Source: an uncultured Mailhella sp.
Lineage (GTDB): Bacteria; Desulfobacterota; Desulfovibrionia; Desulfovibrionales; Desulfovibrionaceae
DNA length: 64,000 nt
NCBI GenBank assembly: GCA_964369835.1
Contig: CAYJGE010000001.1
Location: 290 to 64,289 of the forward strand
Reading direction: 5' to 3'
The notes under the pieces were generated by a model. That model was not told the DNA's origin. It saw only the letters and a program-made list of their open reading frames with translations, and made no database searches. Below, piece after piece: positions 16,067-57,085 of this stretch. Position 1 is the stretch's first letter; each line of letters opens with the position of its first letter. Position numbers and translations under genes: made by a program.

Positions 16067-16088
16067 AAGTTAATTTAAGGATTTTATA

Positions 16089-18470: not shown

Positions 18471-18552
18471 TTTATAATTAATAATTAACTTGGGGGCAAA
18501 GAGGGTGATTCCCTTAGCAAACCCCACAAACTTCTGACTATTCTAAAAATTT

Positions 18553-18884
18553 TACCTTTCCCCCTTGTGCTCGTTTACGAGCACTGTAAGGGGGGTGTCA
18601 TATTGATAAGCGAAGCGAAGAAATATGACGGGGGGCTCAGTTCCTTTAAACACTTTTTGCTCCACCTTAATAAGAAATTATTTTTTTCAGATATCTATAT
18701 GAAGAGCAAAAAGTGGGTAGTGTCATAAAATAGCGAGTAAAATAAGGCAGGCTTTCAAGAGCAAGGAAAGCGAAAAATTTTAGAGGGCGTGTACTCGAGT
18801 ACATAACCGATAAAATTTACAGCTTGACGCAGACATTGGAAGTCTGACTGGTTTACTCCTATATTTTATGACAATAAAAAACAC
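18553..18884 (+). ncRNA. S-family ~335-nt structured intergenic element, copy 1 (candidate ncRNA or structured repeat)
   Basis: Four stems: ccccttgtgctcg/cgagcac..aagggg; gtcatatt/atatgac; cactttttgctc (18651-18662)/gagcaaaaagtg (18704-18715); tgtcataaaata...tattttatgaca. Homologous copies are at 48335 and 51211. Confidence 0.5.
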
Positions 18885-18888
18885 AGCT

Positions 18889-19080
18889 TTATTCTGCAAA
18901 GCAGAATAAAGCAATGTAAAAATTGCAGAATAATGCAATGTAAAAATTGCAGAATAATGCAATGTAAAAATTGCAGAATAAAGCAATGTAAAAATTGCAG
19001 AATAATGCAATGTAAAAATTGCAGAATAAAGCAATGCAAGAATTAAGAAACATGTCATTATTCTGCAAAGCAGAATAATG
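18889..19080. repeat. Six tandem 24-bp units bracketed by two identical hairpins
   Basis: The unit gcagaataWWgcaatgtaaaaatt occurs six times (18901-19044). The hairpin ttattctgcAAAgcagaataa occurs at both ends (18889-18909 and 19058-19078). Confidence 0.9.
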
Positions 19081-29779: not shown

Positions 29780-31615
29780 ATGGAAAATAAAAAAGAAATT
29801 GACGAGTTTAATACAAGCTCTGACCCAAAATTGAATGAACAAGAAAATATAGATGCAAATTTTATCGAAATCATGAAAAAAAATTCTGAAGATGATATAA
29901 TTTTCATTGATGAAAATATGGCTTCTGAGTTTGAACAATCCAAGCAAAATGAGCAAGTTGAACAAATTGAACAGGTTGAACAAATTGAGCAAGTTGAGCA
30001 AGTTGAGCAAATTGAGCAAGTTGAACATGTTGAAGAAGTTGAACAAGAAGAAGTTGAGCAAGTTGAGCTGACTGAAAAAGAAGAACTAACGGAAATAGCT
30101 GAAAAAGAAGAGCAAGCAGAACAGGCAGAACAGGCAGAACAGGCAGAACAGGTTGAAATTGAAAAAGACCAAGATGATAAAGTTGTTGAAAATATAGAAA
30201 ATGAACAACCTTTGGAAAACGTTGAAGAAAGTTCAAATGAAAACACAAATATAAATAGTGATCAAGCAATTGAAGAAAACAAAGAGATAAGTTCGGAAGC
30301 CATTGAAATTGAGAATAAAAATGAAGAATTTATTGAAAAATATTCGGAAAATCCTTTGGAAGAAAATAGTTCTGAACAAATAATTGAAGAAGTAAAAGAA
30401 ATTGAAGAAAATGAAAATACTGCTAATATTAATTTAGAAAAACCTGAAAAACAAATCGCTCATTATGTGGAAAATGAAGTAAAAGAAGATGAAGAAGAAA
30501 ATTCCACATTTACTCAAAAATATGAATTAAACAATAACTTGGCCATAGTATTTAGATTAAGTGCCCTTGGTGATGTTGTTTTGTTAAGCGGTGTTTTTAG
30601 GTTTTGGCATGAACATTTTGGAATAAAATTTATTTTAATCAGTAAAGCAATTTTCTTGCCTTTATTTAGATATCACCCCGCTATTTTTGAAGTTTACCCC
30701 GTTGAAGAAAGGGATTTGGATAGTTTTAACTATAAAAATAAATGTAAAGAATTGGCAAAAAGATATGAAGACTATCCCTTGCTTGATTTACACGGTAATT
30801 TAAGATCCAAAACCATTTCAAGAGCATGGAGAAATTCTGTTTTTCATTATGAAAAACGTGGTTTTATACGTCGCTTGTTTGCATGGACAAAGGGTCGTTT
30901 CGGTTCAAAAAAATTACTTGAAAAAAATGTATGTCAACGCTATGCAAGCTTACTTTGCCTTGAAAATATTCCAAAAAAACTTTTAAAGCCTCAAATATTT
31001 TTAATTCCCACTGAACTTGAAAATGCAAAAAAAAGATTAAAATTATTATTTTGGAAAGAAATGACTCCGGAATACTGGGCAGATTTACCGCCCCATGCCC
31101 TTGAAATGTGGAAACAAAAACAAGAAACGGACAGCTCTGATTTGCCCAAGAAAATAATAGCCTTGCACCCCTTTGCCACCTACAAATCCAAAACATTGAC
31201 CTTGGAACAATGGTTTGAACTTGCAGAAAAAGTAAAAGAAAAGCTAGGAGTTACCCATCAAATCCTCTGGGTTGGCAAAGATACAAGTCTTGATGTGCCG
31301 GTGGGAAAAAGTTTAATCAATTTAACTTCACTTCGTGAGCTTAGTGCAATTTTGAGTAATTGTGATATTGTAATTACAGCCGATTCAGGCCCCATGCACA
31401 TAGCCAATGCCGTGGACTGTAAAATTGTTGCTCTTTTTGGTCCAACCTGCGAAGAATGGGGATTTTTCCCCGTTGGAGATAGGGTTAGAATAGTACAAAC
31501 CGAGAAAAAATGCTATTCTCTTCATGGTGATGTTGCAGACAATGTGCCAAGTTGCTTTGAGGGTTTTGACCTTGATAAAATAGTAGATAAAGCGGTTGAA
31601 CTTGCCTATAGTTAA
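29780..31615 (+). CDS. Glycosyltransferase family 9 (heptosyltransferase-like) with a ~255-aa acidic repeat-rich N-terminal extension
   Basis: The GT9 core spans LAIVFRLSALGDVVL... to ...ITADSGPMHIANAVDCKIVALFGPT. The start is set at ATG 29780 (GAGG upstream). No in-frame Met lies near the start of the GT9 core. Confidence 0.7.
   Translation: MENKKEIDEFNTSSDPKLNEQENIDANFIEIMKKNSEDDIIFIDENMASEFEQSKQNEQVEQIEQVEQIEQVEQVEQIEQVEHVEEVEQEEVEQVELTEKEELTEIAEKEEQAEQAEQAEQAEQVEIEKDQDDKVVENIENEQPLENVEESSNENTNINSDQAIEENKEISSEAIEIENKNEEFIEKYSENPLEENSSEQIIEEVKEIEENENTANINLEKPEKQIAHYVENEVKEDEEENSTFTQKYELNNNLAIVFRLSALGDVVLLSGVFRFWHEHFGIKFILISKAIFLPLFRYHPAIFEVYPVEERDLDSFNYKNKCKELAKRYEDYPLLDLHGNLRSKTISRAWRNSVFHYEKRGFIRRLFAWTKGRFGSKKLLEKNVCQRYASLLCLENIPKKLLKPQIFLIPTELENAKKRLKLLFWKEMTPEYWADLPPHALEMWKQKQETDSSDLPKKIIALHPFATYKSKTLTLEQWFELAEKVKEKLGVTHQILWVGKDTSLDVPVGKSLINLTSLRELSAILSNCDIVITADSGPMHIANAVDCKIVALFGPTCEEWGFFPVGDRVRIVQTEKKCYSLHGDVADNVPSCFEGFDLDKIVDKAVELAYS
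29951..30158 (+). repeat. In-frame 9-bp tandem repeats encoding (EQV/EQI)n and (AEQ)4
   Basis: gagcaagtt/gaacaaatt-type units span 29951-30070. gcagaacag occurs four times at 30115-30150. Confidence 0.9.
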
Positions 31616-32110: not shown

Positions 32111-34189
32111 ATGACAGCGTTTTCCTTATTGTTGGTTTTTGCTTGTGCTGCATTTGCTTTGTTCTATGCATTTAAAGCTTCAAAAACCATATTGGCAGCG
32201 GGAACAGGCAATGAAGACATGCAACGCATTGCCGGGGCAATTCAAGAGGGGGCAAAAGCCTACTTGAATCGCCAATACAGAACCATTGCCTATGTTGGCA
32301 TTGCCATCACCATTGTTTTGTATTTTTCAATTTCTTTTTTAGTGGCTTTAGGTTTTGTTATCGGAGCAGTTCTTTCAGGTGCGGCAGGCTATATTGGCAT
32401 GAACGTTTCTGTGCGTGCCAATGTGCGTACAACAGAAGCTGCTCGTCAAGGCATGGTTCCTGCACTAAATATTGCATTCCAATCAGGTGCAATCACAGGA
32501 CTTTTAGTTGTTGGACTTGGACTTTTGGGCGTAACATTTTATTATGCTTTATTAGAAATTTTCCAAATTGAAACCGAAGAATTAATGCAAGCATTGATTG
32601 CGCTTTCTTTCGGTGCTTCATTGATTTCAATTTTTGCCCGTCTTGGCGGTGGTATTTTCACCAAGGGTGCTGACGTTGGAGCTGACCTTGTGGGTAAGGT
32701 TGAAGCCGGTATTCCTGAGGACGATCCACGTAACCCTGCCGTTATTGCCGATAACGTGGGTGATAACGTGGGTGACTGCGCTGGTATGGCTGCCGACCTT
32801 TTTGAAACCTATGCTGTTACAATTGTTGCAACCATGTTACTTGCTTCCATTTACTTCCAAGGTGAATTACAAAAATTAATGATCATGTACCCACTTTTAA
32901 TTAGTGCTGTATGTATCATAGGTTCCATTGCAGGCACTTATTTTGTAAAACTTTCCCATGACAAGAAAATCATGAAAGCTCTTTACAAAGGACTTGCAGC
33001 AACCGCAATTTTTTCTGCCATTCTAATCACTTTTGTAACCATGGCTTATTTTTGGGACATGAAAGATATGGTGGTTAATGGCAAGGCATTTACAGCCGGA
33101 AATCTTTTACTTTGCTCATTCACAGGTCTTGGCGTAACAGGCTTATTGGTTTGGATTACCGAATATTATACAGCTACAAATTTCCGCCCTGTCAGAAGCA
33201 TTGCCAAATCTTCCACCACAGGACACGGAACAAACGTTATTCAAGGACTTGCCATTTCTTTAGAATCTTGCGCTCTTCCTGTTATAGTTATTTGTGCAGG
33301 TATCTTATTTTCTTACCACAATGCAGGACTTTTTGGAATTTCCATTGCCGCAACCACCATGCTTGCCCTTGCAGGTATGATTGTTGCTCTTGATGCTTAT
33401 GGACCTGTTACCGATAATGCCGGCGGTATTGCTGAAATGGCAGGACTTCCTGATGATGTAAGAGTTGTAACAGACGCCCTTGATGCTGTCGGCAATACAA
33501 CCAAGGCTGTAACCAAAGGTTATGCAATCGGTTCTGCAGCCCTTGCGGCACTTGTGCTTTTTGCTTCTTATACCGAAGATTTACACCGTCTTTTCCCTGA
33601 ACTTGATGTGGTATTTATTTTACAAGATCCCTATGTTTTGGTTGGTCTTTTCATTGGTGGATTGTTACCATATCTTTTTGGTGCCCTTGGCATGATGAGT
33701 GTTGGACGTGCCGGTTCTGCCGTTGTTGTTGAAGTACGTCGTCAATTCAAAGAAATTCCCGGCATCATGGAAGGAACAGCCAAACCTAATTATGGTGCTG
33801 CCGTTGACATGCTTACTAAAGCAGCAATCAAAGAAATGATTATTCCTTCATTATTACCTGTACTTGCTCCTGTTGTTGTCTATTATGTGATTTCAGAAAT
33901 TGGCGGACAAGAAGCAGCTTTTGCTTGCCTTGGTGCCATGCTTTTGGGAACCATTGTAACAGGATTATTTGTTGCCATTTCCATGACCAGCGGTGGCGGT
34001 GCATGGGATAATGCCAAAAAATATATTGAAGACGGAAATTTTGGCGGAAAAGGTTCAGAAGCTCATAAGGCAGCCGTTACAGGTGATACTGTTGGTGACC
34101 CTTATAAAGATACAGCAGGACCTGCTGTTAACCCAATGATTAAAATCATTAACATTGTGGCAATCTTGCTTTTACAAGCTTTAGCTTAA
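32111..34189 (+). CDS. hppA: Membrane-bound proton/sodium-translocating pyrophosphatase
   Basis: 692 aa, polytopic. Signature [21 protein letters not shown] and [15 protein letters not shown]. Confidence 0.95.
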
Positions 34190-34234: not shown

Positions 34235-34405
34235 CACGTCAATCCTTTTTTGTGTTTTTTGAGGGGGAAAACCACGTTTTTTTGAAAAAAACGAGTTTTT
34301 CCCCCTCAAACGTAAGCAATCGCTTCCCCCTTTCCTTAAAAACAAATTTTTCTAACATATTGTTTTATATATATTTTAGAAAAATAGATTTTAAAATAAT
34401 TATTT
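34235..34405 (+). mobile_element. MITE, copy c (right end truncated where it abuts the peptide/antisense module)
   Basis: Left TIR cacgtcaatcc and hairpin gagggggaaaaccacgtttttttgaaaaaaacgagtttttccccctc. Colinear with copy d up to about 34405. No right TIR is present. Confidence 0.6.
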
Positions 34406-34416
34406 TTGATTTTAAC

Positions 34417-34444
34417 TTGACTTTTATAAAGAAAGTCTTAAAAT
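34417..34444 (+). promoter_or_regulatory. Sigma70-type promoter of the putative antisense RNA (locus A)
   Basis: TTGACT-N16-TAAAAT. It is identically placed and conserved in both locus B copies (56591-56618 and 56960-56987, minus strand). Confidence 0.55.
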
Positions 34445-34450
34445 TTTAAA

Positions 34451-34615
34451 TAAGAAAAGGGCAATAAGTGCGCTAACACTTATCACCCCACGGGTAAGCT
34501 CTCTGATGTTTATAGAGTGAAGAAAACATCAAAGAAATTTTAATCGCCGCCATGAATTTGTGCGTTCATGGCGGCAAACTTCTTTAATTGTCCCCGGTCG
34601 GTTTCAGTTTTTTAT
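34451..34615 (+). ncRNA. Putative cis-antisense sRNA A, complementary to the 3' UTR and last codons of the peptide gene
   Basis: The predicted transcript contains three hairpins. The last is the perfect stem gccgccatgaa/ttcatggcggc, followed by a T-rich tract ending at tttcagttttttattt. The ends are predictions only. Confidence 0.4.
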
Positions 34616-34696
34616 TTCAAAATGCCTGCTCAAAATGGCTACAAGGATTAATCCTGCAACAACATTTGCTAAAACAGCAAGAACGAAGTCATTCAT
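34604..34696 (-). CDS. 30-aa hydrophobic peptide (type I toxin-like), locus A
   Basis: MNDFVLAVLANVVAGLILVAILSRHFEIKN. GAGGA lies 7 nt upstream. The first 16 residues are near-identical to the locus B peptide. The longer 62-aa ORF in the track is rejected by homology, because locus B has an in-frame TAA directly upstream of its ATG. Confidence 0.6.
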   Translation of the reverse strand: MNDFVLAVLANVVAGLILVAILSRHFEIKN

Positions 34697-34820
34697 AGAT
34701 TGATCCTCATTTAAAAAATTGATTCTCATCAAAAGGAACACCCATGCTCTTTTAGAATAGACATTGATTCTTTTCTCAAGTAGAAATTGCATGAAAAATG
34801 ACTAATCCTGAATTAATATT

Positions 34821-36740
34821 ATGGAAAAACCAAAAAATATCCCAACTGTTCCCGGAGTCTATATTTATAAGGACAAGGGAGGCAGAATTATATATATAGG
34901 CAAAGCAAGACAACTTAATAAAAGGGTCTTGTCTTATTTTCGCCCGCCCGAACAATTGACTGTAAAAACAAGAGCCATGATGAGTCATGCCTGTTCCATT
35001 GATTTTTTAACCACGGGAACAGAAAAAGAAGCCCTTTTATTGGAAGCCGGTTTAATAAAAAAACACAGACCTCACTATAACATTGTTCTAAGAGATGATA
35101 AACAATATATTTTATTTAGGATTGACAATAAAAACCCTTTCCCCAGACTTGAAATTGTCAGAAAAGTAAAAAAAGATAGAGCCAAGTATTTTGGCCCCTT
35201 TACTTCAAGTCAGGCAGCCAGAGAAACATGGAAAACCATTCATGGCATGTTTGCCCTAAGACGTTGTAATGACAGAGCAATGAAAAACAGAATACGTCCT
35301 TGTCTTTATCATCATATTGGTCTTTGCCTTGCCCCTTGTTCGGGAAATGTCAGCCCTGAATCTTATTTTGAATTAATTAAACAAGTTCAATTATTTCTTG
35401 GGGGTAGATCTAAAGAATTATTGGATAAAATTCAAAAAAACATGGAAATTGCCTCTGAAAATCTAAACTTTGAAAGGGCGGCAGTTTTGCGTGACCAATG
35501 TATTGCCATAAAAAAAACGCTGGAAAAACAAAGCGTTGTTCTTTCTTCCCCCATTGATATGGACGTTATCGGCATTGCCTTTAGGGGTGATGGACTGGGA
35601 CTTGCTATTTTATTTATTCGGGGCGGTGCGCTTATTGATAAAGCCAGCTTTTTTTGGGCAAATTTAGCCATAGAAGATGCCAAGGAATTATTATTTAGTT
35701 TTTTAACTCAGTTTTACAGACCTGAAAAAGATATACCAAGTCGAATTTTAATTCCTTACGATTTAACCGCTCTTAATAATGATGATTTTACAGAACATGA
35801 TAGTTTTGTTGAAAAAAATCCTGATGAAAATTTTTTTGAAAATCAAAATGCCTTGGATAGTATTGCCAATATGCTATCAGAATGGAGAACAAACCCTGTT
35901 AAAATCAATCAACCTAAAAATAATGAAGAATTTAAGCTAATTGGTATGGCAAAGCAAAATGCCAAGGAAGCCCAACACAAAAGGGCTGATTTTGGCATGG
36001 ACATGAGACTTTCTACTTTATTTCAAGAAAATAATCCCATTCGCAAAATTGAATGTATTGATGTTTCCCATACTTCGGGAGTGGCCACAAAAATCGGTAT
36101 GGTTGTTTATCAAGACGGAAAACCCCATAAATCTGAATATAGGGTTTGGAATGTGGAAGATTGCCAAGGTGATGACCATAAGGCTCTTATTAATTTTGCA
36201 AATTTCAGAATAAAACATGATAGCCCCTATCCTGACTTAATGTTGATAGATGGGGGAAGAGGGCAAGTAAATACAGTTTATAAGGTATTTGCAGAGCATT
36301 TTAAAAATAATGAATTTAATAATCCAAATTTAAAAGAAAATCCCTTGCCCTTTGTTTTGGCAGGAATAGCCAAGGCAAGAGATGAACAAGGACATGCCGA
36401 CCGCAGAGCAGGAAATTTGGCAGATCGAATTTTTATACCCAATCGAACAAATCCCCTACCCTTTAGAGAGGGAAGCGGAGAACTTTTATTTTTACAATCA
36501 ATCAGAGATACTTGCCATGATTTTGCCATTAATAAACATCGAAAAGCAAGAGCCAAGCAAACCTTGGAGGCAGAACTTTTAAATCTTCCCAATCTTGGGC
36601 CACATACAGCCAAACTATTGTGGGAACATTTTAAAGATTTACAAAGTATGAAAAATGCCAAGCCAGAGGATTTGGAAAAATTACCGAGGGTTGGCAGAAA
36701 AAAAGCCAAAATGATTCATGAGTCTTTAAAACAATTATAA
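34821..36740 (+). CDS. uvrC: Excinuclease ABC subunit C
   Basis: N-terminal GIY-YIG (PGVYIYKDKGGRIIYIGKA), UVR domain, and C-terminal endonuclease plus HhH. Confidence 0.95.
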   Translation: MEKPKNIPTVPGVYIYKDKGGRIIYIGKARQLNKRVLSYFRPPEQLTVKTRAMMSHACSIDFLTTGTEKEALLLEAGLIKKHRPHYNIVLRDDKQYILFRIDNKNPFPRLEIVRKVKKDRAKYFGPFTSSQAARETWKTIHGMFALRRCNDRAMKNRIRPCLYHHIGLCLAPCSGNVSPESYFELIKQVQLFLGGRSKELLDKIQKNMEIASENLNFERAAVLRDQCIAIKKTLEKQSVVLSSPIDMDVIGIAFRGDGLGLAILFIRGGALIDKASFFWANLAIEDAKELLFSFLTQFYRPEKDIPSRILIPYDLTALNNDDFTEHDSFVEKNPDENFFENQNALDSIANMLSEWRTNPVKINQPKNNEEFKLIGMAKQNAKEAQHKRADFGMDMRLSTLFQENNPIRKIECIDVSHTSGVATKIGMVVYQDGKPHKSEYRVWNVEDCQGDDHKALINFANFRIKHDSPYPDLMLIDGGRGQVNTVYKVFAEHFKNNEFNNPNLKENPLPFVLAGIAKARDEQGHADRRAGNLADRIFIPNRTNPLPFREGSGELLFLQSIRDTCHDFAINKHRKARAKQTLEAELLNLPNLGPHTAKLLWEHFKDLQSMKNAKPEDLEKLPRVGRKKAKMIHESLKQL

Positions 36741-38291: not shown

Positions 38292-41200
38292 TTATGATTT
38301 ATTCAATAAATTAAGTTTGTTCAAACAAGTATAAATATTTTCAACCGTTATTGGTTTTGCAATATGATAATTCATGCCGGCTAATTTACTTTTTCTTACA
38401 TCTTCGGCATAGGCATTTGCAGTCATGGCGATAATCGGAATAGAGCTTGCTTCTTCATGTTTTGATTGACGAATAGTAACAGTGGCATCAAGTCCGTTTA
38501 ATACAGGCATTTGCAAATCCATAAATATGAAGTCAAAGGTTTTTGGAGGATTATTGACAAAAACATCAACACCTTCTTGACCATTGACGGCAACAGTTAT
38601 TTTTGCACCCATTTTTTCCAAAATTTTAGTTGCAACCAATACATTAATGGGGTGATCTTCAACCAAGAGAATATGTGTATTATTTAAATTAATATCCTGC
38701 ATATTCAATTGTTTAGCTTTTTCTTTATTCTTTTTATTCTTCGCAGTATCAATGAACATGGGCAGTTCAATAATAAATTTAGAGCCTTTGCCAAGTTCAC
38801 TTTCGACCTTAATATCACCGTTTTGATATTCAACCAAGGCCTTTACAATGGCAAGCCCAAGCCCTGTTCCTTCAATATTTTTAACGGATTTTTCTTCTCT
38901 ATGGAAGGCATCAAATATAAATTCTAAGTTTTCCTCGGCAATTCCTATTCCTGTATCTTCAATGCTTATGCAATATCTGGCCACATTTTCTGTGTCCATG
39001 CCAATTTCTTCAAGAATTAAACTAATTGTTCCTTCTTCAGGTGTAAATTTGACAGCATTTCCAAGTAAGTTTGTTAAAACACGATTAAAACGAGTCACAT
39101 CGCTGATAACATTTTCATGTACCAAGTTATTGTTTATAAAATTAATGGTTTGCCTTTTTTGAATGGTAATACCTTTGAAAAAATTGTAAACTTGTAAACA
39201 TTCATCATAAATAGAAAAAGAATCGCGATTAAACACAACTTTTTTACTCTCAAGTCTACTCATTTCCAAAATATCATTCAATAGGGATAATAAATGTTCT
39301 GAACTTGACTTGATAACATTTAAACTTTCTTTAATTTGCTCTTTATTATCAATATCTTCAATGGCTAAATTGGTCATACCGATAATTGCATTCATGGGTG
39401 TTCTGATGTCATGACTCATGGAAGCTAAAAATGTGCTTTTGGCTTCGCTGGCTTGTTTGGCAATATCCAAGGCTTGTTTTAAATTTTCAACTCTTTTTTG
39501 TTCTTCGAGAAAAATATCTGTAACATCAACACAACCAAAACAAACACTTTTGGAAATGTCATCAAATAAAAATACTCTGATTTGTTTATATTTAAGCACT
39601 CCTCCCCAAAAAACTTTAAAATAAACATCATAATGCCCTTCAAGCTGACAACGCTTCAGGATAGTATCTAAATTTCTTTCATTTAAAATCCTTTCCAAGT
39701 CTTCTTCCACAACAGTATTTTCAAGCATAACTTTAGAGTCACAACTATAAGAACCTGTAAATTTAGGCATGGCTTTAAATGCAGCATTAATATGCTCGGC
39801 AGTAAATAATTTATAGGTATCGGCTTCATAATTGATATAAAAGATAAAATCAAACTGATTTTCTACAAATTCACTGGTAAAAAATTGTGAAATCTTTGTT
39901 TGAGTAATATCATTAAGGCTTAAAAAACACATAATATCTTCAGAGGAAGGTTGTTTTAGCATTTTTATATCAAAACAAATCCAAAGACTTTCATTTGATT
40001 TTGATAAAATTTTTGTTTCAAAGCTATAATTATAAACACCATTTTTGAAAAGTTCCAATAGTTTTGCAACTGATATATTATTTTTAAATTCTTCCTTGTA
40101 ATTAATATCTTTAATACGATCTTCTATTTCAAAAAAGAATTCCTCGGCAGTATGAATTATATCCTGTTCAAAATCTTCTTTAAATTTAAGATAAAACATA
40201 TCGTTTTGAGTTAGATTTGCAATCCCCGACACTACAAAATCAGACATTCCCCTATTCCAAAGCTGAACAGACTCCTCATAACTGTTCTCGGCATTTTTTT
40301 GTTCTGTAATATCATAGGAAGAGGCAAAGGCAAAATTGGGTTTACCTGTTTTATCCTTTGTCACATTATAGTGAACCTTTATCCATTCATATTTGTCCGT
40401 GAAAGTATTTTTAACCCTCAATTCTTCTGTAACAATATCATCACCATTATGAACTTTTTCATACATTTTTCTATATTTATCGACATCTTTTGGATGAATT
40501 ATATTTCTTTCAATGATGGATTCAGGTACATTTTCAATTATATTATCAGTAAGTCCGACTGTCCTGCTATTATTATCTTGGATAATGGTTTTGGTTTTTA
40601 TATTATATGTCCAAATGTCAATTCCCGTTTGCGCAATGGTTAAATTGAGTTTCTTTTCAACTTCTTTATAACTATCAATATTTTCACTGGTTCCGACATA
40701 ACAAGGTATGGAAGGATCTTCATTTAAAACTTTAACATAGCGAAGTCTGCGCCATGATTCTTTACCATCATTATTTCCAAAGGAACTAAGTATTTCCGCC
40801 TCTGCATACTCTGCCCCGCTTTTTATTTTAGCATGAACCGAAAAATATGCTTCAACTGTGCTTTCATTAATATAGCCCATGTCAACAACACATTCAGGAA
40901 AATTATGATAAACTGTTTCATGAAAATTTTTTATATTGTTGGCAAACAAAACAGCTTTATTTTCCAAAGGATAATAATCCCAGCACAAAAGCCCGGCATT
41001 TAATATGGCTATTCCCATTTTTTCCTTGGTAACTTTCAGCATATTATGTATTTCATATCTTAGTGAAACATCAGTGCAAGTTGCGTAAAGATATGAAGTT
41101 CCGTTCTCATCTGTAATTAATCTTGAATGCATATCCAGCCACAAAACATCTGAACTTTTTGTAGTCACCTTAAATTGCAGTGATAACTTATTTTCAGTAT

Positions 41201-43109
41201 CAAAAGAAGAAAGATGTTTGCGAACAAAATCCACATTGGTTTTGCAAATCAAATTAATCAATTTACCACCAAATTTTTTTTGAAACTCTCTGGCTGTATA
41301 ACCAATAAGTCTGAAAAATCCTTCATTGGCAAAATCAACTTCCAATTCAGGTGAATATGCACATCTTAAAATTGCACCCGGAATATTATGATAAAGTTGC
41401 TTGACTTGATCATTGGCCTTTTCAAGCATAGTCTTGGCCGTATAACTATCTGTTATATTAATTAATAAAATATCTAAGGTGGTTAAATCAGCTTGTAATT
41501 CCCTATTGCCTATGAAAAGATAAATTAATTTGTCTCCATTTTTTGAAGAAATCTCAACTTCAAAGGATAGTTCATCATTATTTTTTGAAGTTGTTTCTAA
41601 AAACTCCAAAACTTTTTTTCTGTCATTGTCAGCAAGCATCAGTAAAAAGTTGTTATTGTAAATTTCAGATATTTCATTTTGATTATAGCCAAGCTGTTGA
41701 TAAAATGAAGAACTGCATTCCAAAATATTCAACTCGTTAAAGTGATAAGAACATGTCAAAAGGCTTCCGTTTGCCTTATCATACATACTTTGCAGTTTAT
41801 TGGCTTGAGCCTTATAGGAAGTAACATCGGTAAAAGTAACATATAAAAAAGCATTGTTATTATTCTTTATATAGGTTTGCCCACAAGCATTAATCCATTT
41901 AATTTGCTTATCTGACTCGATAACTTTTAAATCATAGGCAAATTGCTTGGAAGTATGCAAACATTTATACAATAAACCATAAAAATAAGTGGCTTCATTT
42001 TCTGTTAATATGTTTTCTAAAAGCTGTGCATAGGGTATATTGTCTTTTAATGGTTTAATATTTGGAACACCTAATTTTAAACAATTATCCAAAGTTGGGC
42101 TATAATAAAGAGGATAAACTTGGTCTGAATTATCAAGCTTAAATAATGCAAAACCACTAATACTTTTTTGGATAAAATTAAAAAACTTCTCAACTTCAGT
42201 GAGTCTGGTGTTTATATCTAAAAAATAAAGATGAATACTTTTTTGATGCTTTTCATCATTTATGACATGTCCTAATATTGAAACCCACATATAACTATTG
42301 TCTTTAGATTTTAATCTAAGATCAAAAGATAGTTTTTCACCGTTATTTAATATTTTATGATTAATATGTTCAGTTTTATGCAAAATATCGGCAGGATGAA
42401 ATAAACTAAACAAATTACCGACTGCCACTATTTCTTCAATACTGTCATATTTTAAAAGCTTGACCAAGTTATGATCAACATGCAGTATCGGATAATTTTC
42501 TTCAAGCTTACATTTTGCAAACCCAACAAGATTTTTCTCTTTACTGATAAATGACTTTACATCACTAAAAGACGCCACTTTTTTGTCATTATAAATGTCT
42601 ATTTCACTTTGTAAATATGAACTATTTTCAAGCTCATTAACTATTCTGATACCGGAAAAACGAAATTTACTTGGGTTAATATTTGGATCAATAAAATCAT
42701 TTTCAATGATATGATCCAAAATATCATTAACATCGCCTGAATTTGTCAAGATACTTTCTTCAATAATATCAAAGTAAACAAAAAAAGTTTTTTTATTGCT
42801 TAAGTAGACTGCCACAACACAGTTCCAACCTTTTGAGCTTTGGGTAATGGGCTGAAAGTCAATATTTTCAAGTTCAAAATCTTCGTGAACATCAAAAATC
42901 TTTGATTTTAAATCGCCAAGATATTGACACCCAACAAAATGCTCTTTTTCAAAGGAATGATATAAAAGAATATTGGGAGTACATGATTTAATTTCTTCTG
43001 ACTTGTCATCTGCTTCTGAAGGAAATGAACTCGAAAAAAAAGAACTACAAAAATCATTAATTAAAGAAATTATTTTATTTTTCATTTCTTCACTTAGTAA
43101 ATCTTTCAT
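38292..43109 (-). CDS. Hybrid sensor histidine kinase/response regulator with multiple PAS-like repeats
   Basis: 1605 aa. H-box SHDIRTPMNAIIGM, HATPase G-box GTGLGLAIVKALV, and a C-terminal receiver (LLVEDHPIN...FMDLQMPVLNG...AKP). It appears cytoplasmic, with no obvious TM segment. Confidence 0.9.
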   Translation of the reverse strand: MKDLLSEEMKNKIISLINDFCSSFFSSSFPSEADDKSEEIKSCTPNILLYHSFEKEHFVGCQYLGDLKSKIFDVHEDFELENIDFQPITQSSKGWNCVVAVYLSNKKTFFVYFDIIEESILTNSGDVNDILDHIIENDFIDPNINPSKFRFSGIRIVNELENSSYLQSEIDIYNDKKVASFSDVKSFISKEKNLVGFAKCKLEENYPILHVDHNLVKLLKYDSIEEIVAVGNLFSLFHPADILHKTEHINHKILNNGEKLSFDLRLKSKDNSYMWVSILGHVINDEKHQKSIHLYFLDINTRLTEVEKFFNFIQKSISGFALFKLDNSDQVYPLYYSPTLDNCLKLGVPNIKPLKDNIPYAQLLENILTENEATYFYGLLYKCLHTSKQFAYDLKVIESDKQIKWINACGQTYIKNNNNAFLYVTFTDVTSYKAQANKLQSMYDKANGSLLTCSYHFNELNILECSSSFYQQLGYNQNEISEIYNNNFLLMLADNDRKKVLEFLETTSKNNDELSFEVEISSKNGDKLIYLFIGNRELQADLTTLDILLINITDSYTAKTMLEKANDQVKQLYHNIPGAILRCAYSPELEVDFANEGFFRLIGYTAREFQKKFGGKLINLICKTNVDFVRKHLSSFDTENKLSLQFKVTTKSSDVLWLDMHSRLITDENGTSYLYATCTDVSLRYEIHNMLKVTKEKMGIAILNAGLLCWDYYPLENKAVLFANNIKNFHETVYHNFPECVVDMGYINESTVEAYFSVHAKIKSGAEYAEAEILSSFGNNDGKESWRRLRYVKVLNEDPSIPCYVGTSENIDSYKEVEKKLNLTIAQTGIDIWTYNIKTKTIIQDNNSRTVGLTDNIIENVPESIIERNIIHPKDVDKYRKMYEKVHNGDDIVTEELRVKNTFTDKYEWIKVHYNVTKDKTGKPNFAFASSYDITEQKNAENSYEESVQLWNRGMSDFVVSGIANLTQNDMFYLKFKEDFEQDIIHTAEEFFFEIEDRIKDINYKEEFKNNISVAKLLELFKNGVYNYSFETKILSKSNESLWICFDIKMLKQPSSEDIMCFLSLNDITQTKISQFFTSEFVENQFDFIFYINYEADTYKLFTAEHINAAFKAMPKFTGSYSCDSKVMLENTVVEEDLERILNERNLDTILKRCQLEGHYDVYFKVFWGGVLKYKQIRVFLFDDISKSVCFGCVDVTDIFLEEQKRVENLKQALDIAKQASEAKSTFLASMSHDIRTPMNAIIGMTNLAIEDIDNKEQIKESLNVIKSSSEHLLSLLNDILEMSRLESKKVVFNRDSFSIYDECLQVYNFFKGITIQKRQTINFINNNLVHENVISDVTRFNRVLTNLLGNAVKFTPEEGTISLILEEIGMDTENVARYCISIEDTGIGIAEENLEFIFDAFHREEKSVKNIEGTGLGLAIVKALVEYQNGDIKVESELGKGSKFIIELPMFIDTAKNKKNKEKAKQLNMQDINLNNTHILLVEDHPINVLVATKILEKMGAKITVAVNGQEGVDVFVNNPPKTFDFIFMDLQMPVLNGLDATVTIRQSKHEEASSIPIIAMTANAYAEDVRKSKLAGMNYHIAKPITVENIYTCLNKLNLLNKS

Positions 43110-43244: not shown

Positions 43245-43440
43245 CACGTCAATCCGTTTTTGTGTTTTTTGAGAGGGAAAACCACGTTTTTTTGAAAAAA
43301 ACGAGTTTTTCCCCCTCAAACTCCCCCTTTCCTTAAAAAACAAATTTTTCTAACATATTGTTTTATAATTATTTTTAAAAAATAGATTTAAAAATAATTA
43401 ATTTTTTTTTGAAAGTAAATTTCGCAAGCGGATTGACGTG
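43245..43440 (+). mobile_element. MITE, copy d: perfect 12-bp TIRs and a 10-bp target-site duplication
   Basis: TIRs cacgtcaatccg (43245-43256) and cggattgacgtg (43429-43440). The flanking direct repeat atctgttgac is at 43235-43244 and 43441-43450. Confidence 0.85.
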
Positions 43441-43814: not shown

Positions 43815-44080
43815 CACGCCATTCCGGTTTTAAAAAAACATAATTATGGAATGATTTTTGATTTTAGGGCATTTTGGGAAAAGAATTGTCCTAAAATGCC
43901 CTAATCACTTCATTGGAGCATGGCGACATTGAAGTGCAAAAAGCAAGAATAGAAGTGGCTTTGCCGCTTCGTTAAATGATTGCTTTTTGAAAGTTATATG
44001 GGTTAGAGTAGGTTCAATTTTTATTGAAACTGCTCTAGTTCAAAAAAACGTGGTTTCCCCCCTCAATCCGGAATCACGCG
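43815..44080 (-). mobile_element. Composite MITE, copy g: MITE ends enclosing module X, with a 10-bp TSD
   Basis: Ends cacgccattccgg... and ...ccggaatcacgcg. The interior (43865-44037) is module X. The flanking direct repeat agtgactccc is at 43805-43814 and 44081-44090. Confidence 0.75.
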
Positions 44081-48303: not shown

Positions 48304-48334
48304 TTAATTTCTTAGGTAAAAAATAAATTTTTTT

Positions 48335-48675
48335 TACCTTTCCCCCTTGTGCTCGCTTGCGTAAGCACTGCAAGGGGGGTGTCATATTGTTTTGAGTAGC
48401 AAAAACAATATGACGGGGGGTTCAGTTCAAGCCAATCGCTTTTTGCTTCACACTATAATGGCATAAACTATTTAATCATAATTGTTTTTGACAAGCAAAA
48501 AGCGAGGTTAGTGTCATAAAATAGCGGGTAAAATAAGGCAGGCTTTCAAGAGCAAGGAAAGCGAAAAATTTTAGAGGGCGTGTACTCAAGTACATAACCG
48601 ATAAAATTTACAGCTTGACGCAGATGTTGGAAGTCTGACTGGTTTACCCCTATATTTTATGACAATAAAAAACAC
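48335..48675 (+). ncRNA. S-family structured element, copy 2
   Basis: Colinear with 18553-18884. The third stem is tcgctttttgctt (48436-48448)/aagcaaaaagcga (48493-48505), with compensatory changes relative to copy 1. Confidence 0.5.
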
Positions 48676-48817
48676 AATTTGTTTCTGCTAAGCAGAAACA
48701 AATAATAAAAAGACAATTTGATTTTGCAAAGCAAAAACAAGTAATTGAAAAAACCAACTTGATTTTGCAAAGCAAAAACAAGTTAGTGAAAACAAAACCT
48801 AATTAAATTTAAAAAAT

Positions 48818-51159: not shown

Positions 51160-51210
51160 AAATTACTTTATTCTCCCTATCTTTAAAATACATTATCCCT
51201 ACCTTATCCC

Positions 51211-51545
51211 TACCTTCTTGTGCTCGCTTGCGTAAGCACGGCAAGGGGGGTGTCATATTGCAAAGCAAAGCGACAGCAATATGACGGGGGGTTCAATTCG
51301 AGCTAATCGCTTTTTGCTTCACCTTTAACTGCATTAATCACTTAATAACTGAACTTATGGTAAGCAAAAAGCGAGGTTAGTGGCATAAAATAGCGGGTGA
51401 AATAAGGCAGGCTTTAAATAGCAAGGAAGGCGAAAATTTTTTGAGGGAGTGTACTCGAGTACATGACCGATAAAATTTACAGCCTGACGCAGATATTGGA
51501 AGTCTTACTGTTTTACCCCTATATTTTATGGCAATAAAAAAGCAC
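51211..51545 (+). ncRNA. S-family structured element, copy 3
   Basis: Colinear with copies 1 and 2. The third stem is at 51307-51319/51362-51374. Confidence 0.5.
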
Positions 51546-51674
51546 AACTTGCATCTGCAAAGCAGAGGCAAGTAAATAAAATAAATGAATGAATTAATGA
51601 CTTACTATTTGCAAAACAAAGACAAGTTAAATAATAATTAAATAAACCATTAATGATCTTAAAAGGACAAATTT

Positions 51675-55817: not shown

Positions 55818-56064
55818 CACGTGATTCCGGTTTGAGGGGGGAAACCCCATTTTTTTGAATCAATCCATAACGCTTAGTCTCACTTTGTTCGACATAAGCC
55901 GGGTGAGTTTTCCCCCCTCAAACGTAAGCAATCGCTTCCCCCCTTCCTGAAAAAACATTTTTTCAAATAACAATATAACTATTTTGATTTATTAATATTT
56001 TATTTAATGTCTAAAATCAAAGATCATTCCATAATTATGTTTTTTTAAACCGGAATGGAGTGCT
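55818..56064 (+). mobile_element. MITE, copy f: 9-bp TSD, inserted into a D-family repeat tail
   Basis: Ends cacgtgattccggttt and aaaccggaatggagtgc. The flanking direct repeat tgcctttct is at 55809-55817 and 56065-56073. Confidence 0.8.
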
Positions 56065-56424: not shown

Positions 56425-56584
56425 AATAAACTAAATCGGCCGGGGCAATTAAAGAAGTCTGCCGCCATGAAACAGCAACTTCACAGCGGCGATTAAGATT
56501 TCTTTGATGTTTTGCAATCCTATAAACATCAAAGGGCTTACCCGTTGGGGTGATAAGTGCACTAACACTTATTGCCCTTTTCTT
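56425..56584 (-). ncRNA. Putative antisense sRNA B1 (orphan copy; promoter at 56591-56618)
   Basis: A near-identical direct repeat of 56795-56953 with the same TTGACT-N16-TAAAAT promoter. No intact peptide ORF is convergent with it. Confidence 0.35.
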
Positions 56585-56640
56585 AATTTAAATTTTAAAT
56601 CTTTCTTTACAAAAGTCAAGTTAAAATCAAAGTACGCTTG

Positions 56641-56669
56641 CTTGAAAAATTTCTGCAAACTTGTTATAA
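56641..56669 (+). promoter_or_regulatory. Sigma70-type promoter of peptide gene B
   Basis: TTGAAA-N17-TATAAA, about 55 nt upstream of ATG 56724. The homologous position in locus A is TTGAGA-N17-TCTAAA. Confidence 0.5.
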
Positions 56670-56723
56670 AAAAGTTCGGGTATTCCTTTTTGATGAGAAT
56701 TTATTCTTAAAGGAGGAATAATC

Positions 56724-56795
56724 TATGAGTGACTTCGTTCTTGCTGTTTTGGCAAATGTTGTTGCAGGATTTATTCTTGCACGCATTTTGAAATA
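56724..56795 (+). CDS. 23-aa hydrophobic peptide (type I toxin-like), locus B
   Basis: MSDFVLAVLANVVAGFILARILK. Strong SD AAAGGAGG 8 nt upstream. An in-frame TAA directly precedes the ATG. It is too short to appear in the ORF track. Confidence 0.6.
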
Positions 56796-56953
56796 AAAAC
56801 TAAATCGGCCGGGGCAATTAAAGAAGTCTGCCGCCATGAAGCAGCAACTTCACAGCGGCGATTAAGATTTCTTTGATGTTTTGCAATCCTATAAACATCA
56901 AAGGGCTTACCCGTTGGGGTGATAAGTGCACTAACACTTATTGCCCTTTTCTT
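56795..56953 (-). ncRNA. Putative cis-antisense sRNA B2 (promoter at 56960-56987)
   Basis: TTGACT-N16-TAAAAT on the minus strand. In the hairpin gccgcugugaag/cuucauggcggc the two non-Watson-Crick positions are G.U only in the antisense orientation. Confidence 0.4.
56916..56952 (+). terminator. Intrinsic terminator of peptide mRNA B
   Basis: gggugauaagug-cacuaa-cacuuauugccc followed by uuuucuu. The stem has two G.U pairs that would be A/C mismatches on the other strand. The locus A equivalent is 34452-34488 (minus strand). Confidence 0.5.
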
Positions 56954-57085
56954 AATTTAAATTTTAAATCTTTCTTTACAAAAGTCAAGTTAAAATCAAA
57001 AGTAAGTTTATTTGGACGCATCTAATTTGCGATGTAAACTGATTTGATTTTTATGTTAACATAATATATTGATTGTATTGATAAT

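What the first reader, a model, noticed from the sequence alone, without database searches (positions are those of the whole stretch)
34406..34780. Locus A: a 30-aa hydrophobic peptide gene convergent with a promoter-bearing structured antisense element (candidate novel type I toxin-antitoxin family)
On the minus strand there is a promoter-like TTGAGA-N17-TCTAAA (34774-34779 is the -35), a ~40-nt leader and a GAGGA SD. These precede MNDFVLAVLANVVAGLILVAILSRHFEIKN (34696-34604), a single TM helix with a basic tail.

A ~150-nt 3' region follows with three hairpins. It ends in a stem plus UUUUCUU (34488-34452) that contains two G.U pairs valid only on this strand.

On the plus strand, TTGACT-N16-TAAAAT (34417-34444) fires back through the same region towards the peptide stop codon. 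That transcript would pass the perfect hairpin gccgccatgaa/ttcatggcggc. The whole module is conserved at 56.4-57.0 kb.

This architecture (small membrane peptide, long structured 3' UTR, convergent cis-antisense RNA) matches established type I TA systems such as fst/RNAII, txpA/ratA and bsrG/SR4. The peptide does not resemble any toxin family I can recall.
Basis: partly seen in the sequence, partly recalled or inferred. Interest (0 to 1): 0.8.

Follow-up and report, generated by a model that had tools for sequence, protein, structure and literature searches.

The report
Small toxin gene with antisense RNA
A tiny membrane-peptide gene faced by a conserved antisense RNA gene, repeated in a low-GC Desulfovibrionaceae genome, is most likely a type I toxin-antitoxin module whose toxin is a shortened, distant relative of the Clostridioides difficile type I toxins, so it extends a known kind to a new phylum and is not a new kind.

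Summary
A ~200-nt element occurs three times: at 34.4-34.6 kb on the minus strand and twice in tandem at 56.43-57.0 kb on the plus strand. Two copies follow a small hydrophobic ORF (30 aa and 23 aa) with a strong SD. All three carry an inward-facing TTGACT-N16-TAAAAT promoter on the opposite strand. G.U pairs assign one terminator hairpin to each strand, predicting a ~290-nt peptide mRNA and a ~135-nt antisense RNA that overlap by ~134 nt. Between paralogues the stems differ at 3/68 positions and the loops at 14/26 (p=2e-7). Predicted loop-loop pairing is strong only for cognate pairs. The peptide is not family-less. Its first 21 residues align in register with the C. difficile type I toxin family (NF047374 / phrog_738), at hhalign 94% and 0/400 shuffles. 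It scores below the family cutoff and lacks the Lys-rich tail. No relative of the module was found elsewhere, and Rfam has no match. Verdict: a probable type I TA module, a new variant of a known kind in an unexpected phylum. No expression or toxicity data exist.

The parts
34751..34779 (-). Locus A putative toxin promoter: TTGAGA (34779-34774), 17-nt spacer, TCTAAA (34756-34751). Predicted TSS is about 34744-34743 (GGGUGUUCC...).
   Evidence: Read from the sequence. The same positions and 17-nt spacing hold in copy B2 (TTGAAA-N17-TATAAA), although the promoter/leader region is only 69% identical. The scanner did not flag it because the -10 lacks the terminal T.
34697..34744 (-). Locus A 5' leader (~48 nt), with the SD GAGGA at 34708-34704 and a 5'-terminal UUCCU anti-SD.
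   Evidence: The MFE fold pairs the 5' end with the SD in both copies, but the energy is no better than shuffles (z=-0.5 and -1.3). This is weak evidence.
34604..34696 (-). Toxin-like ORF A, 30 aa: MNDFVLAVLANVVAGLILVAILSRHFEIKN. One TM helix, with a best 19-aa Kyte-Doolittle window of 2.90.
   Evidence: Similarity to the C. difficile type I toxin family is shown.
34546..34585 (+). Hairpin H1 plus AAACUUCUUU: predicted intrinsic terminator of the antisense RNA. It ends ~18 nt short of the peptide stop codon.
   Evidence: The scanner flags it on the plus strand. In copies B1 and B2 the stem keeps full pairing only on the antisense strand, through two G.U pairs that would be C-A and A-C mismatches on the peptide strand.
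34501..34534 (.). Hairpin H2 (CUUUGAUGUUU / AAACAUCAGAG) with a 12-nt loop that differs at 5 positions between paralogues.
   Evidence: The one stem change is a U.G pair that is valid on the peptide strand in copy A.
34452..34489 (-). Hairpin H3 plus UUUUCUU: predicted intrinsic terminator of the peptide mRNA. Its complement forms the 5' hairpin of the antisense RNA.
   Evidence: Scanner. Two G.U pairs are valid only on the minus strand. The loop differs at 6/6 positions between A and B while the stem is invariant.
34417..34444 (+). Antisense (antitoxin) promoter TTGACT-N16-TAAAAT. Predicted TSS is about 34451.
   Evidence: 10/12 match to consensus, with both hexamers and the 13 nt upstream invariant in all three copies.
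34451..34585 (+). Predicted antisense RNA A, ~135 nt with three hairpins, fully complementary to the mRNA 3' UTR (overlap ~134 nt).
   Evidence: MFE -43.3 kcal/mol, z=-4.46, 0/200 shuffles as stable. The ends are inferred from the promoter and terminator, not measured.
56428..56631 (+). Copy B1 of the RNA element with no peptide ORF upstream (orphan). Its antisense promoter is at 56619-56592 (-) and its antisense terminator at 56490-56461 (-).
   Evidence: It differs from B2 at one loop position within the 204-nt repeat.
56642..56670 (+). Locus B2 putative toxin promoter TTGAAA (56642-56647) -N17- TATAAA (56665-56670). TSS is about 56678.
   Evidence: Read from the sequence; alignment with copy A.
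56725..56796 (+). Toxin-like ORF B2, 23 aa: MSDFVLAVLANVVAGFILARILK. The SD GGAGGA lies 7 nt upstream. A 13-nt deletion relative to A shifts the frame and shortens the tail.
56797..57000 (+). Copy B2 of the RNA element: mRNA 3' UTR with sense terminator 56916-56947 plus U-tract, antisense promoter 56988-56961 (-), and antisense terminator 56859-56830 (-).

Best explanation
These are chromosomal type I toxin-antitoxin modules. A weak promoter drives a ~290-nt mRNA with a ~48-nt leader, a 30-aa (copy A) or 23-aa (copy B2) single-helix membrane peptide, and a ~150-nt 3' UTR of three hairpins ending in an intrinsic terminator. A stronger, near-consensus promoter just beyond that terminator fires back and produces a ~135-nt antisense RNA. 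That RNA mirrors the three hairpins and stops at its own terminator (H1), about 18 nt before the peptide stop codon. Inferred mechanism: the antisense RNA first contacts its own mRNA by loop-loop kissing at the complementary loops. The contact then extends to a ~134-bp duplex that a double-strand RNase (RNase III type) cleaves and/or that remodels the mRNA, so the peptide is not made. If the labile antisense RNA is lost, the peptide inserts in the membrane and arrests growth. Loop divergence makes the A and B pairs non-cross-reacting. Copy B1 adds a second antitoxin gene for the B2 toxin. Shown here: the sequence anatomy, the strand assignment of the terminators, the stem/loop substitution pattern, and the peptide's similarity to validated toxins. 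Inferred: transcription, translation, toxicity and the mode of repression.
For: (1) The peptide gene looks real. SD GAGGA/GGAGGA lies 7 nt before the ATG in both copies, and the best 19-aa hydrophobicity windows are 2.90 and 2.39. (2) The peptide resembles experimentally validated toxins. The only hit among 18,950 NCBIfam and 24,736 Pfam models is NF047374 CD_typeI_toxin (E=2e-3, residues 1-23 to profile 1-22). An independent library gives phrog_738 (E=1e-3, residues 1-21 to 1-21). A true member from phage phiCD119 scores 82 bits on NF047374 and 2e-20 on phrog_738. That ORF is the top hit for both window peptides among 351 ATG-initiated small ORFs (20-80 aa) in the first 50 kb of that phage genome, and shuffled queries reach the score in 3/300 and 0/300 trials. 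hhalign gives 92.9-94.4% probability with columns 1-21 aligned to 1-21. The observed score is 32.9, against 8.4+-2.3 for column shuffles and 11.3+-3.0 for TM-core shuffles, with 0/400 reaching 90%. None of 10 shuffled or reversed peptides hits NF047374. (3) There are two convergent transcription units. The antisense promoter matches consensus at 10/12 and is invariant in all three copies. H3 is G.U-valid only on the peptide strand, and H1 in the B copies is G.U-valid only on the antisense strand. (4) RNA structure is under constraint. Stems differ at 3/68 positions, loops at 14/26 and other positions at 12/107. Fisher gives p=2.4e-7 for loops against stems and 8.8e-6 for loops against other positions. 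Folding z-scores are -4.5 to -5.5. (5) The paralogues look orthogonal. Cognate loop duplexes are -4 to -16 kcal/mol and non-cognate ones +1.6 to -4.7. In C. difficile only cognate antitoxins rescue, and binding goes through a kissing intermediate to an RNase III-sensitive duplex (PMC5961336). (6) The dimensions match the C. difficile systems: antitoxin 134-140 nt and overlap 131-134 nt (PMC5961336). (7) Multi-copy, tandem and orphan arrangements are typical of chromosomal type I TA loci (established knowledge).
Against: There are no expression, translation or toxicity data. No relative of the module was found outside this genome, so there is no cross-species covariation and no dN/dS test. The two peptide copies differ by only 2 synonymous and 2 non-synonymous changes plus a frameshifting deletion. 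The peptides score 18 bits on NF047374 against a cutoff of 60, are shorter (30 and 23 aa) than any described member (34-53 aa), and lack the lysine-rich tail. Copy B2 may be a decaying gene, and B1 has no toxin at all. The toxin promoter is non-canonical and the scanner did not flag it. The SD-sequestering leader fold is no better than shuffles. The predicted antisense RNA does not reach the ORF or the SD, so repression would have to be indirect. The host is a Gram-negative Desulfovibrionaceae. According to the T1TAdb paper (PMC8594479), 3'-overlapping type I architecture is described only for Gram-positive families.
Confidence: 0.62

Rival explanations
1. It is a benign small membrane protein gene under antisense control. 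The peptide is made and the antisense RNA tunes its level, but the peptide is a harmless membrane component or regulator, not a toxin. The module is then not an addiction or defence system.
For: The architecture is equally compatible with any cis-antisense-regulated small protein. The peptides lack the Lys-rich tail that is conserved in the C. difficile toxins (PMC7699646). They fall below the NF047374 cutoff. The loci sit among housekeeping genes, not in prophages or plasmids.
Against: The only detectable relatives of the peptide are validated toxins. Multi-copy, tandem and orphan-antitoxin arrangements, and loops that diverge to give orthogonal pairs, are hallmarks of TA paralogues and not of ordinary small membrane proteins.
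Confidence: 0.15
2. The real gene is the ~135-nt RNA on the 'antisense' strand, a three-copy trans-acting sRNA family with its own promoter and terminator. The adjacent peptide ORFs are relics or irrelevant.
For: All three copies keep the near-consensus promoter and the G.U-validated terminator, but only two have a peptide ORF, and one of those is truncated by a frameshift. The RNA folds well (z=-4.46).
Against: The sense-strand terminator H3 has G.U pairs that work only on the peptide strand and is invariant in all copies. The ORF with its SD is the best-conserved stretch upstream of the element, at about 94% identity over the shared codons against 69% for the leader and promoter. The peptide's resemblance to a toxin family would be an unexplained coincidence. 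The hypervariable loops would destroy any shared trans target.
Confidence: 0.12
3. It is a non-coding repetitive intergenic element (REP/MITE-like) whose hairpins act as bidirectional terminators between genes. The promoter-like boxes and the small ORF are fortuitous.
For: The window is rich in other intergenic repeat families, and one abuts locus A and lies near locus B. Promoter-like matches as a class are not enriched (5 against 3.2 expected). No homologue was found outside this genome.
Against: There is a different strand-specific terminator on each strand, not a symmetric one. The SD sits at the ideal distance from the ORF in both copies. The peptide's order-specific similarity to a toxin family is significant. 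The neighbouring repeat recurs at 43245-43422 without the module, so the module is a separate unit. At locus A nothing on the minus strand reads into the module from upstream: the nearest upstream gene, uvrC, runs the other way.
Confidence: 0.07

Closest known systems
Clostridioides difficile type I TA systems (CD2517.1/RCd8, CD2907.1/RCd9, CD0956.2/RCd10, CD0977.1/RCd11 and phage/plasmid homologues; toxin models NCBIfam NF047374 and phrog_738)
   Same: The N-terminal membrane helix motif M-[NSD]-[DEN]-F-[VL]-L-x-V-L-A-x-[VL]-x-A-[GS]-[LF]-I is shared in register from Met1. An AGGAGG-type SD lies 7-8 nt before the ATG. The antisense RNA is convergent, at ~135 nt here against 134-140 nt there, with ~134 nt of overlap against 131-134 nt. 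Both RNAs are structured. Several paralogous copies occur per genome. In C. difficile only cognate antitoxins rescue, with kissing followed by a duplex, which matches the loop divergence seen here.
   Different: The peptide is 30 or 23 aa instead of 34-53 aa and has no lysine-rich tail. It scores 18 bits against the 60-bit cutoff. The antisense terminator lies in the 3' UTR, ~18 nt past the stop codon, while in the one phage locus I inspected (phiCD119) the antisense terminator-like hairpin lies inside the ORF. There is no DNA-level similarity. The host is a Gram-negative Desulfovibrionaceae, not Peptostreptococcaceae. The loci are not next to CRISPR arrays, riboswitches or prophages.
Bacillus subtilis 3'-overlapping type I TA systems (txpA/RatA, bsrG/SR4, bsrE/SR5, yonT/SR6)
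   Same: Both have convergent toxin mRNA and antisense RNA overlapping at their 3' ends, a small hydrophobic toxin and structured RNAs. The expected action is RNase III-type cleavage of the duplex and/or remodelling of the mRNA (established knowledge; summarised in PMC8594479, and PMC5961336).
   Different: No peptide similarity was detected, since no Pfam or NCBIfam toxin model other than NF047374 hit, and there is no Rfam antitoxin match. In those families the antisense RNA overlaps the ORF; here it stops short of it. Those systems lie in prophage or prophage-like regions of a Gram-positive host.
Fst/RNAII (par locus of pAD1) and SprA1/SprA1as
   Same: Both have convergent transcripts that share a terminator region, with an antisense RNA that does not overlap the toxin ORF.
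   Different: In those families the functional pairing lies outside the overlap, using 5' direct repeats. No such repeats are seen here, and the peptides are unrelated.
Gram-negative type I TA families (Hok/Sok, Ldr/Rdl, Ibs/Sib, TisB/IstR-1, ShoB/OhsC, Zor/Orz, AapA/IsoA)
   Same: All have a small hydrophobic toxin, an antisense RNA antitoxin, multi-copy chromosomal loci and non-cross-reacting paralogues (for Ibs/Sib and Zor/Orz, cited in PMC5961336).
   Different: In those families the antisense RNA lies 5' of the mRNA or is fully enclosed by it. Here it covers only the 3' UTR. There is no peptide or RNA similarity.

Membership tests
C. difficile type I toxin family (NCBIfam NF047374 'CD_typeI_toxin' / phrog_738) | The whole-protein score reaches the curated NF047374 cutoff of 60 bits. 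| tested here: not met
   18.4 bits (30-aa copy) and 17.6 bits (23-aa copy), E=2e-3 and 4e-3. A true member from phiCD119 scores 82.2 bits.
C. difficile type I toxin family (NCBIfam NF047374 'CD_typeI_toxin' / phrog_738) | Conserved hydrophobic N-terminal (transmembrane) region. | tested here: met
   hhalign gives 94.4% probability and E=8.9e-8, with columns 1-21 aligned to 1-21 at 43% identity. 0/400 shuffled controls reach 90%. phrog_738 matches residues 1-21 to profile 1-21. The family member is the top small ORF in phiCD119.
C. difficile type I toxin family (NCBIfam NF047374 'CD_typeI_toxin' / phrog_738) | Lysine-rich, positively charged C-terminal region, with a total length of 34-53 aa (PMC5961336, PMC6563280, PMC7699646). 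| tested here: not met
   The tails are SRHFEIKN (30 aa total) and ARILK (23 aa total). The profile matches stop at residues 21-23 of a 51-52-position model.
C. difficile type I toxin family (NCBIfam NF047374 'CD_typeI_toxin' / phrog_738) | Convergent antisense RNA of ~130-140 nt overlapping the 3' part of the toxin mRNA. | tested here: met
   Met at the sequence level only. There is a conserved antisense promoter and a strand-specific terminator in all three copies. The predicted RNA is ~135 nt with ~134 nt of overlap. Transcription was not measured.
Type I toxin-antitoxin systems (general) | Small (<60 aa) hydrophobic peptide with a predicted TM helix and a translatable ORF. | tested here: met
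   Peptides of 30 and 23 aa, best 19-aa KD windows of 2.90 and 2.39, and an SD 7 nt upstream of the ATG.
Type I toxin-antitoxin systems (general) | The peptide is toxic when over-expressed and is neutralised by the cognate antisense RNA. | not testable with these tools
   This needs inducible expression with and without the antisense RNA.
Type I toxin-antitoxin systems (general) | Both RNAs are transcribed; the toxin mRNA is stable and the antitoxin RNA is labile. | not testable with these tools
   This needs strand-specific RNA-seq or Northern analysis and rifampicin chase experiments.
Rfam antitoxin / sRNA families | A covariance-model match at or near the gathering score. | tested here: not met
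   There are 0 hits at gathering score in the whole 64-kb window. The permissive scans of both loci gave only sub-threshold matches far below each family's gathering score.

The most novel reading that the evidence does not exclude
This would be the first type I TA system of the 'Gram-positive' 3'-convergent design in the Thermodesulfobacteriota (Desulfovibrionaceae). It would descend by cross-phylum transfer among gut anaerobes from the C. difficile toxin lineage and be reduced to a 23-30-aa core. That would show that the bare N-terminal helix suffices for toxicity. The three hairpin loops would be under diversifying selection that creates orthogonal toxin/antitoxin specificities within one genome.
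Probability: 0.3. Interest if true: 0.6.

Novelty: new variant of a known kind. Interest (0 to 1): 0.45.

Why it matters
Type I toxins are so short and lineage-restricted that families are rarely traced across phyla, and the literature search found no paper describing one in Desulfovibrionaceae. If confirmed, this module would extend the experimentally validated C. difficile toxin family to a Gram-negative gut-type anaerobe. It would define a minimal toxin of 23-30 aa with no lysine-rich tail. It would also offer a compact natural example of two paralogues with identical stems and rewritten loops, useful for studying how antisense specificity evolves. It shows too that annotation pipelines, and low-complexity-filtered BLAST in particular, miss such genes entirely.

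Tried and rejected
Known RNA family: Rfam gave nothing at gathering score and only sub-threshold noise in the permissive scans, and there are no tRNAs or tmRNA. Rejected.

Relatives elsewhere, all negative:
- blastn against phages and plasmids.
- DNA patterns in viral contigs.
- DNA pattern in metagenome contigs: 5 hits, all limited to the 20-nt pattern itself, so chance.
- DNA pattern in the 185,579-species genome set.
- Word-indexed protein search with the 62-aa extended ORF.
- Exhaustive phmmer of the 30-aa peptide against 1.84 billion representatives: the only hit is a 730-aa protein with five hydrophobic stretches, which I judge compositional.

tblastn-based negatives (and the confirmation step) are uninformative. 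With default filtering the peptide scores only 25 bits against its own gene, compared with 58.5 bits unfiltered.

Synteny: uvrC in the nearest relatives (71% and ~65% identical) has different upstream neighbours and no module. The module is therefore not an ancestral feature of this intergenic region.

Attenuator or riboswitch reading of the element: rejected, because no gene follows it on its strand in any copy.

Coding potential of the element: short ORFs run through it on both strands (MLKEK...39 aa at B1 on the element's own strand; MAA[ND]FFNCP... on the opposite strand). These are rejected because an indel between copies breaks the frame and they have no SD.

Fourth copy at 43.2-43.9 kb: rejected. 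Only the neighbouring, unrelated repeat is shared.

SD sequestration by the 5' end: present in the MFE folds but not statistically supported. I keep it only as a weak inference.

Source assembly name: could not be obtained.
Full report
CONTEXT. The finding lies in a 630-bp gap between a membrane H+-pyrophosphatase gene (32111-34189, +; PF03030, E=8e-265) and uvrC (34821-36740, +). The window has ~35% GC. The UvrC protein is identical to one NCBI protein on a 72.8-kb contig. Its next relatives are 71% and ~65% identical. The named ones at about 65% are Taurinivorans muris and a Mailhella MAG, and more distant named hits are Mailhella and 'Desulfovibrionaceae bacterium'. The organism is therefore a low-GC member of the Desulfovibrionaceae, a Gram-negative lineage. 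In the relatives, uvrC has other upstream neighbours and no comparable gap. Locus B lies between a MoCF/MOSC gene and a ferredoxin gene. Neither locus is in a prophage or plasmid context.

- TTGAGA-N17-TCTAAA on the minus strand.
- SD GAGGA, 7 nt before the ATG at 34696.
- The 30-aa ORF MNDFVLAVLANVVAGLILVAILSRHFEIKN.
- Three hairpins.
- A terminator-like stem plus UUUUCUU at 34489-34452.
- On the plus strand, TTGACT-N16-TAAAAT at 34417-34444 (10/12 match).
- The perfect hairpin at 34546-34575.

The ~200-nt element downstream of the ORF occurs exactly three times in the window. Copy A is at about 34603-34400 on the minus strand. Copies B1 (56428-56631) and B2 (56797-57000) are on the plus strand, as a direct repeat with 369-nt spacing. 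Only B2 is preceded by a peptide gene. That gene encodes 23 aa (MSDFVLAVLANVVAGFILARILK), because a 13-nt deletion relative to A shifts the frame and shortens the tail. B1 has no peptide gene. The neighbouring 34235-34415 stretch belongs to a different repeat family. It recurs at 43245-43422 without the module, and the similarity ends just before the antisense -35 box, which fixes the outer edge of the module.

TWO CONVERGENT TRANSCRIPTS, ASSIGNED BY G.U PAIRS. The hairpin followed by UUUUCUU (H3) has two G.U pairs that work only on the peptide strand, and it is invariant in all copies. The GCCGCC hairpin (H1) is perfect in copy A. In B1 and B2 it carries two changes that are C-A and A-C mismatches on the peptide strand but U.G and G.U pairs on the opposite strand, where it is followed by A(A/G)ACUUCUUU. 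The scanner flags it as terminator-like on that strand in all three copies. The near-consensus promoter sits immediately outside H3 and is invariant in its two hexamers and 13 upstream bases. Together these predict a ~135-nt antisense RNA (34451 to ~34585) that is complementary to ~134 nt of the mRNA 3' UTR and stops ~18 nt short of the stop codon. The antisense RNA folds at -43.3 kcal/mol (z=-4.46). The two mRNAs fold with z=-5.5. None of 200 shuffles matches any of them. The toxin promoter (TTGAGA/TTGAAA-N17-TCTAAA/TATAAA) keeps its position and spacing in a region that is only 69% identical. It is non-canonical, however, and the scanner did not flag it. A weak toxin promoter facing a strong antitoxin promoter is the usual type I arrangement (established knowledge).

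SUBSTITUTION PATTERN. Between A and B2 the six stem arms differ at 3 of 68 positions. Each of those changes is pair-preserving on one strand. The three loops differ at 14 of 26 positions and everything else at 12 of 107. Fisher's test gives p=2.4e-7 for loops against stems and p=8.8e-6 for loops against other positions. So the stems are constrained, and the loops change faster than even unpaired linkers. Predicted loop-loop duplexes are stable for cognate pairs (H1 -9.5/-12.1, H2 -16.0/-14.7, H3 -5.6/-4.1 kcal/mol). They are weak for A x B pairs (H1 -3.4/-4.7, H2 -1.9/-1.4, H3 +0.2/+1.6). B1 and B2 differ by a single loop base within the repeat, so B1 would supply a second antitoxin for the B2 toxin.

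THE PEPTIDE HAS A KNOWN RELATIVE. Pfam gives nothing for the peptides themselves, only a far-sub-threshold hit (E=0.08) for the 62-aa extended ORF. NCBIfam gives a single hit for both peptides: NF047374 'CD_typeI_toxin'. The scores are E=2e-3 and 4e-3, 18 bits against a cutoff of 60, with residues 1-23 aligned to profile positions 1-22 of 51. PHROGs independently gives phrog_738, with residues 1-21 aligned to 1-21 of 52 at E=1e-3. Ten shuffled or reversed peptides never hit NF047374.

I then pulled C. difficile phage genomes. In phiCD119 an unannotated 47-aa ORF (MSEFLLGVLASLTASFITYIISRKVK...) is the best match for both window peptides among 351 small ORFs. Shuffled queries reach that score in 3/300 and 0/300 trials, and 0/2000 do so against that ORF alone. 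This ORF is a clear family member, at 82 bits on NF047374 and 2e-20 on phrog_738. Further members include phiCD38-2 gp33 (MDNFLLNVLAGVIASLIFYIISK...), which by my count from the sequences matches the window peptide at 11 of the first 22 residues.

Profile-profile comparison gives 92.9-94.4% probability with columns 1-21 aligned to 1-21. The observed score of 32.9 compares with 8.4+-2.3 (max 19.7) for column shuffles and 11.3+-3.0 (max 22.6) for TM-core shuffles. None of the 400 shuffles reaches 90%. The similarity is therefore specific to residue order and not a matter of composition. The shared motif is M-[NSD]-[DEN]-F-[VL]-L-x-V-L-A-x-[VL]-x-A-[GS]-[LF]-I. The window peptides stop shortly after the helix and lack the lysine-rich tail of the 34-53-aa C. 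difficile toxins (PMC5961336, PMC6563280, PMC7699646).

COMPARISON OF ARCHITECTURE. In C. difficile the toxin mRNAs are ~300 nt and the main antitoxins 134-140 nt, and they overlap by 131-134 nt at their 3' ends. The toxins are membrane-associated and arrest growth. Only the cognate antitoxin rescues, despite extensive homology between loci. Binding proceeds from a kissing intermediate to a full duplex that RNase III degrades in vitro (PMC5961336). The dimensions, the convergent design and the loop-based specificity inferred here match this closely. There are also differences:
- The antisense terminator here lies in the 3' UTR, while in phiCD119 it lies inside the ORF.
- There is no DNA similarity.
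- The loci are not next to CRISPR arrays, riboswitches or prophages.
- The host belongs to another phylum.

The T1TAdb paper states that 3'-side overlapping antisense RNAs characterise the Gram-positive families. In Gram-negative families the antisense RNA lies 5' of the mRNA or is fully enclosed by it (PMC8594479). A literature search for type I TA in Desulfovibrio found nothing relevant.

HOW IT MOST LIKELY WORKS. Steps 1 to 4 below are inferred from anatomy and from the closest characterised systems; none is shown here.
1. The abundant antisense RNA kisses the complementary loops of H1-H3 in its own mRNA.
2. Pairing spreads to a ~134-bp duplex.
3. The duplex is cleaved by a double-strand-specific RNase and/or alters the mRNA fold, so the peptide is not translated.
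4. When the antisense RNA decays, the peptide inserts into the membrane and stops growth.

A 5'-terminal UUCCU can pair with the SD in both copies, but this fold is no better than shuffles. I do not rely on it.

LIMITS. No relative of the module was found anywhere else:
- The word-indexed protein search found nothing.
- Exhaustive phmmer against 1.84 billion representatives gave one compositional hit to a 730-aa protein.
- blastn against phages and plasmids found nothing.
- DNA patterns in viral, metagenome and genome collections gave nothing or chance matches.

The tblastn-based negatives carry no weight. Default low-complexity filtering cuts the peptide's score against its own gene from 58.5 to 25 bits. 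With only two distinct copies there is no cross-species covariation and no usable dN/dS: the changes are 2 synonymous, 2 non-synonymous and one frameshifting deletion. Copy B2 may be decaying. Nothing here demonstrates transcription, translation or toxicity.

VERDICT. The type I TA reading is the best-supported explanation (confidence about 0.6). The claim of a toxin with no known relatives is not supported. I file it as a new variant of a known kind: a truncated, distant relative of the C. difficile type I toxin lineage with its own antisense RNA, in a Gram-negative Desulfovibrionaceae. It is not a member of NF047374 by the curated criterion. Interest is moderate (0.45).

Noticed in passing
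window 34235-34415; 43245-43422; 25315-25394; 13284-13313; 55830-55967: There is a separate intergenic repeat family: CACGTCAATCC... followed by a long hairpin, UUUGAGGGGGAAAAC...GUUUUUCCCCCUCAAA. One copy abuts locus A, another lies ~460 nt upstream of locus B, and others sit in further gene gaps. It looks like a REP-like or bidirectional-terminator element. Its best Rfam matches are sub-threshold hairpin hits only.
   Followed up: partly
window 18550-18920, 48332-48711, 51203-51580: Three copies of a ~200-400-nt intergenic repeat (77-91% identical for the 213-nt core) lie upstream of plus-strand ORFs. Associated are short 'AAAAACACA...TTCTGCAAAGCAGAA' hairpin units and, at 18877-19068, a 24-nt tandem array (GCAGAATAATGCAATGTAAAAATT, about 7 units).
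   Followed up: no
window 13147-13199 and 43815-43867: A 53-nt repeat (CACGCCATTCCG...ATAATTATGGAGTGATTTTTGATTTTAG), 92% identical, lies in two different intergenic regions.
   Followed up: no
window 29919-30164: A 9-nt periodic repeat (GAACAAGTT/GAGCAAATT..., encoding E-Q-V/I triplets) lies inside the ORF 29750-31615.
   Followed up: no
window 1-64000: There are no tRNA genes and no Rfam family at gathering score (no riboswitch, no known sRNA) in 64 kb, although several structured, repeated intergenic elements are present.
   Followed up: partly
L009 (phage phiCD119, AY855346) 28805-28948 (+) and 16040-16162 (+): Two type I toxin genes (47 aa and 40 aa) are unannotated in the deposited record. 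The 47-aa one scores above the NF047374 cutoff. In phiCD38-2 (L010) the homologue gp33 (30239-30391) is annotated only as 'putative membrane protein'.
   Followed up: partly
window 56377-56496 (+): A 39-aa ORF (MLKEKLEKHIKTTHCFNKLNRPGQLKKSAAMKQQLHSGD) reads from unique upstream sequence into orphan element B1. It has no good SD, and the frame is not kept in the other copies. It is probably spurious.
   Followed up: partly
window 38292-43109 (-): A very large (1605-aa) ORF ends in a C-terminal part that looks, by eye, like a histidine kinase plus receiver domain. It lies between the two toxin loci. I saw it only in the ORF list.
   Followed up: no
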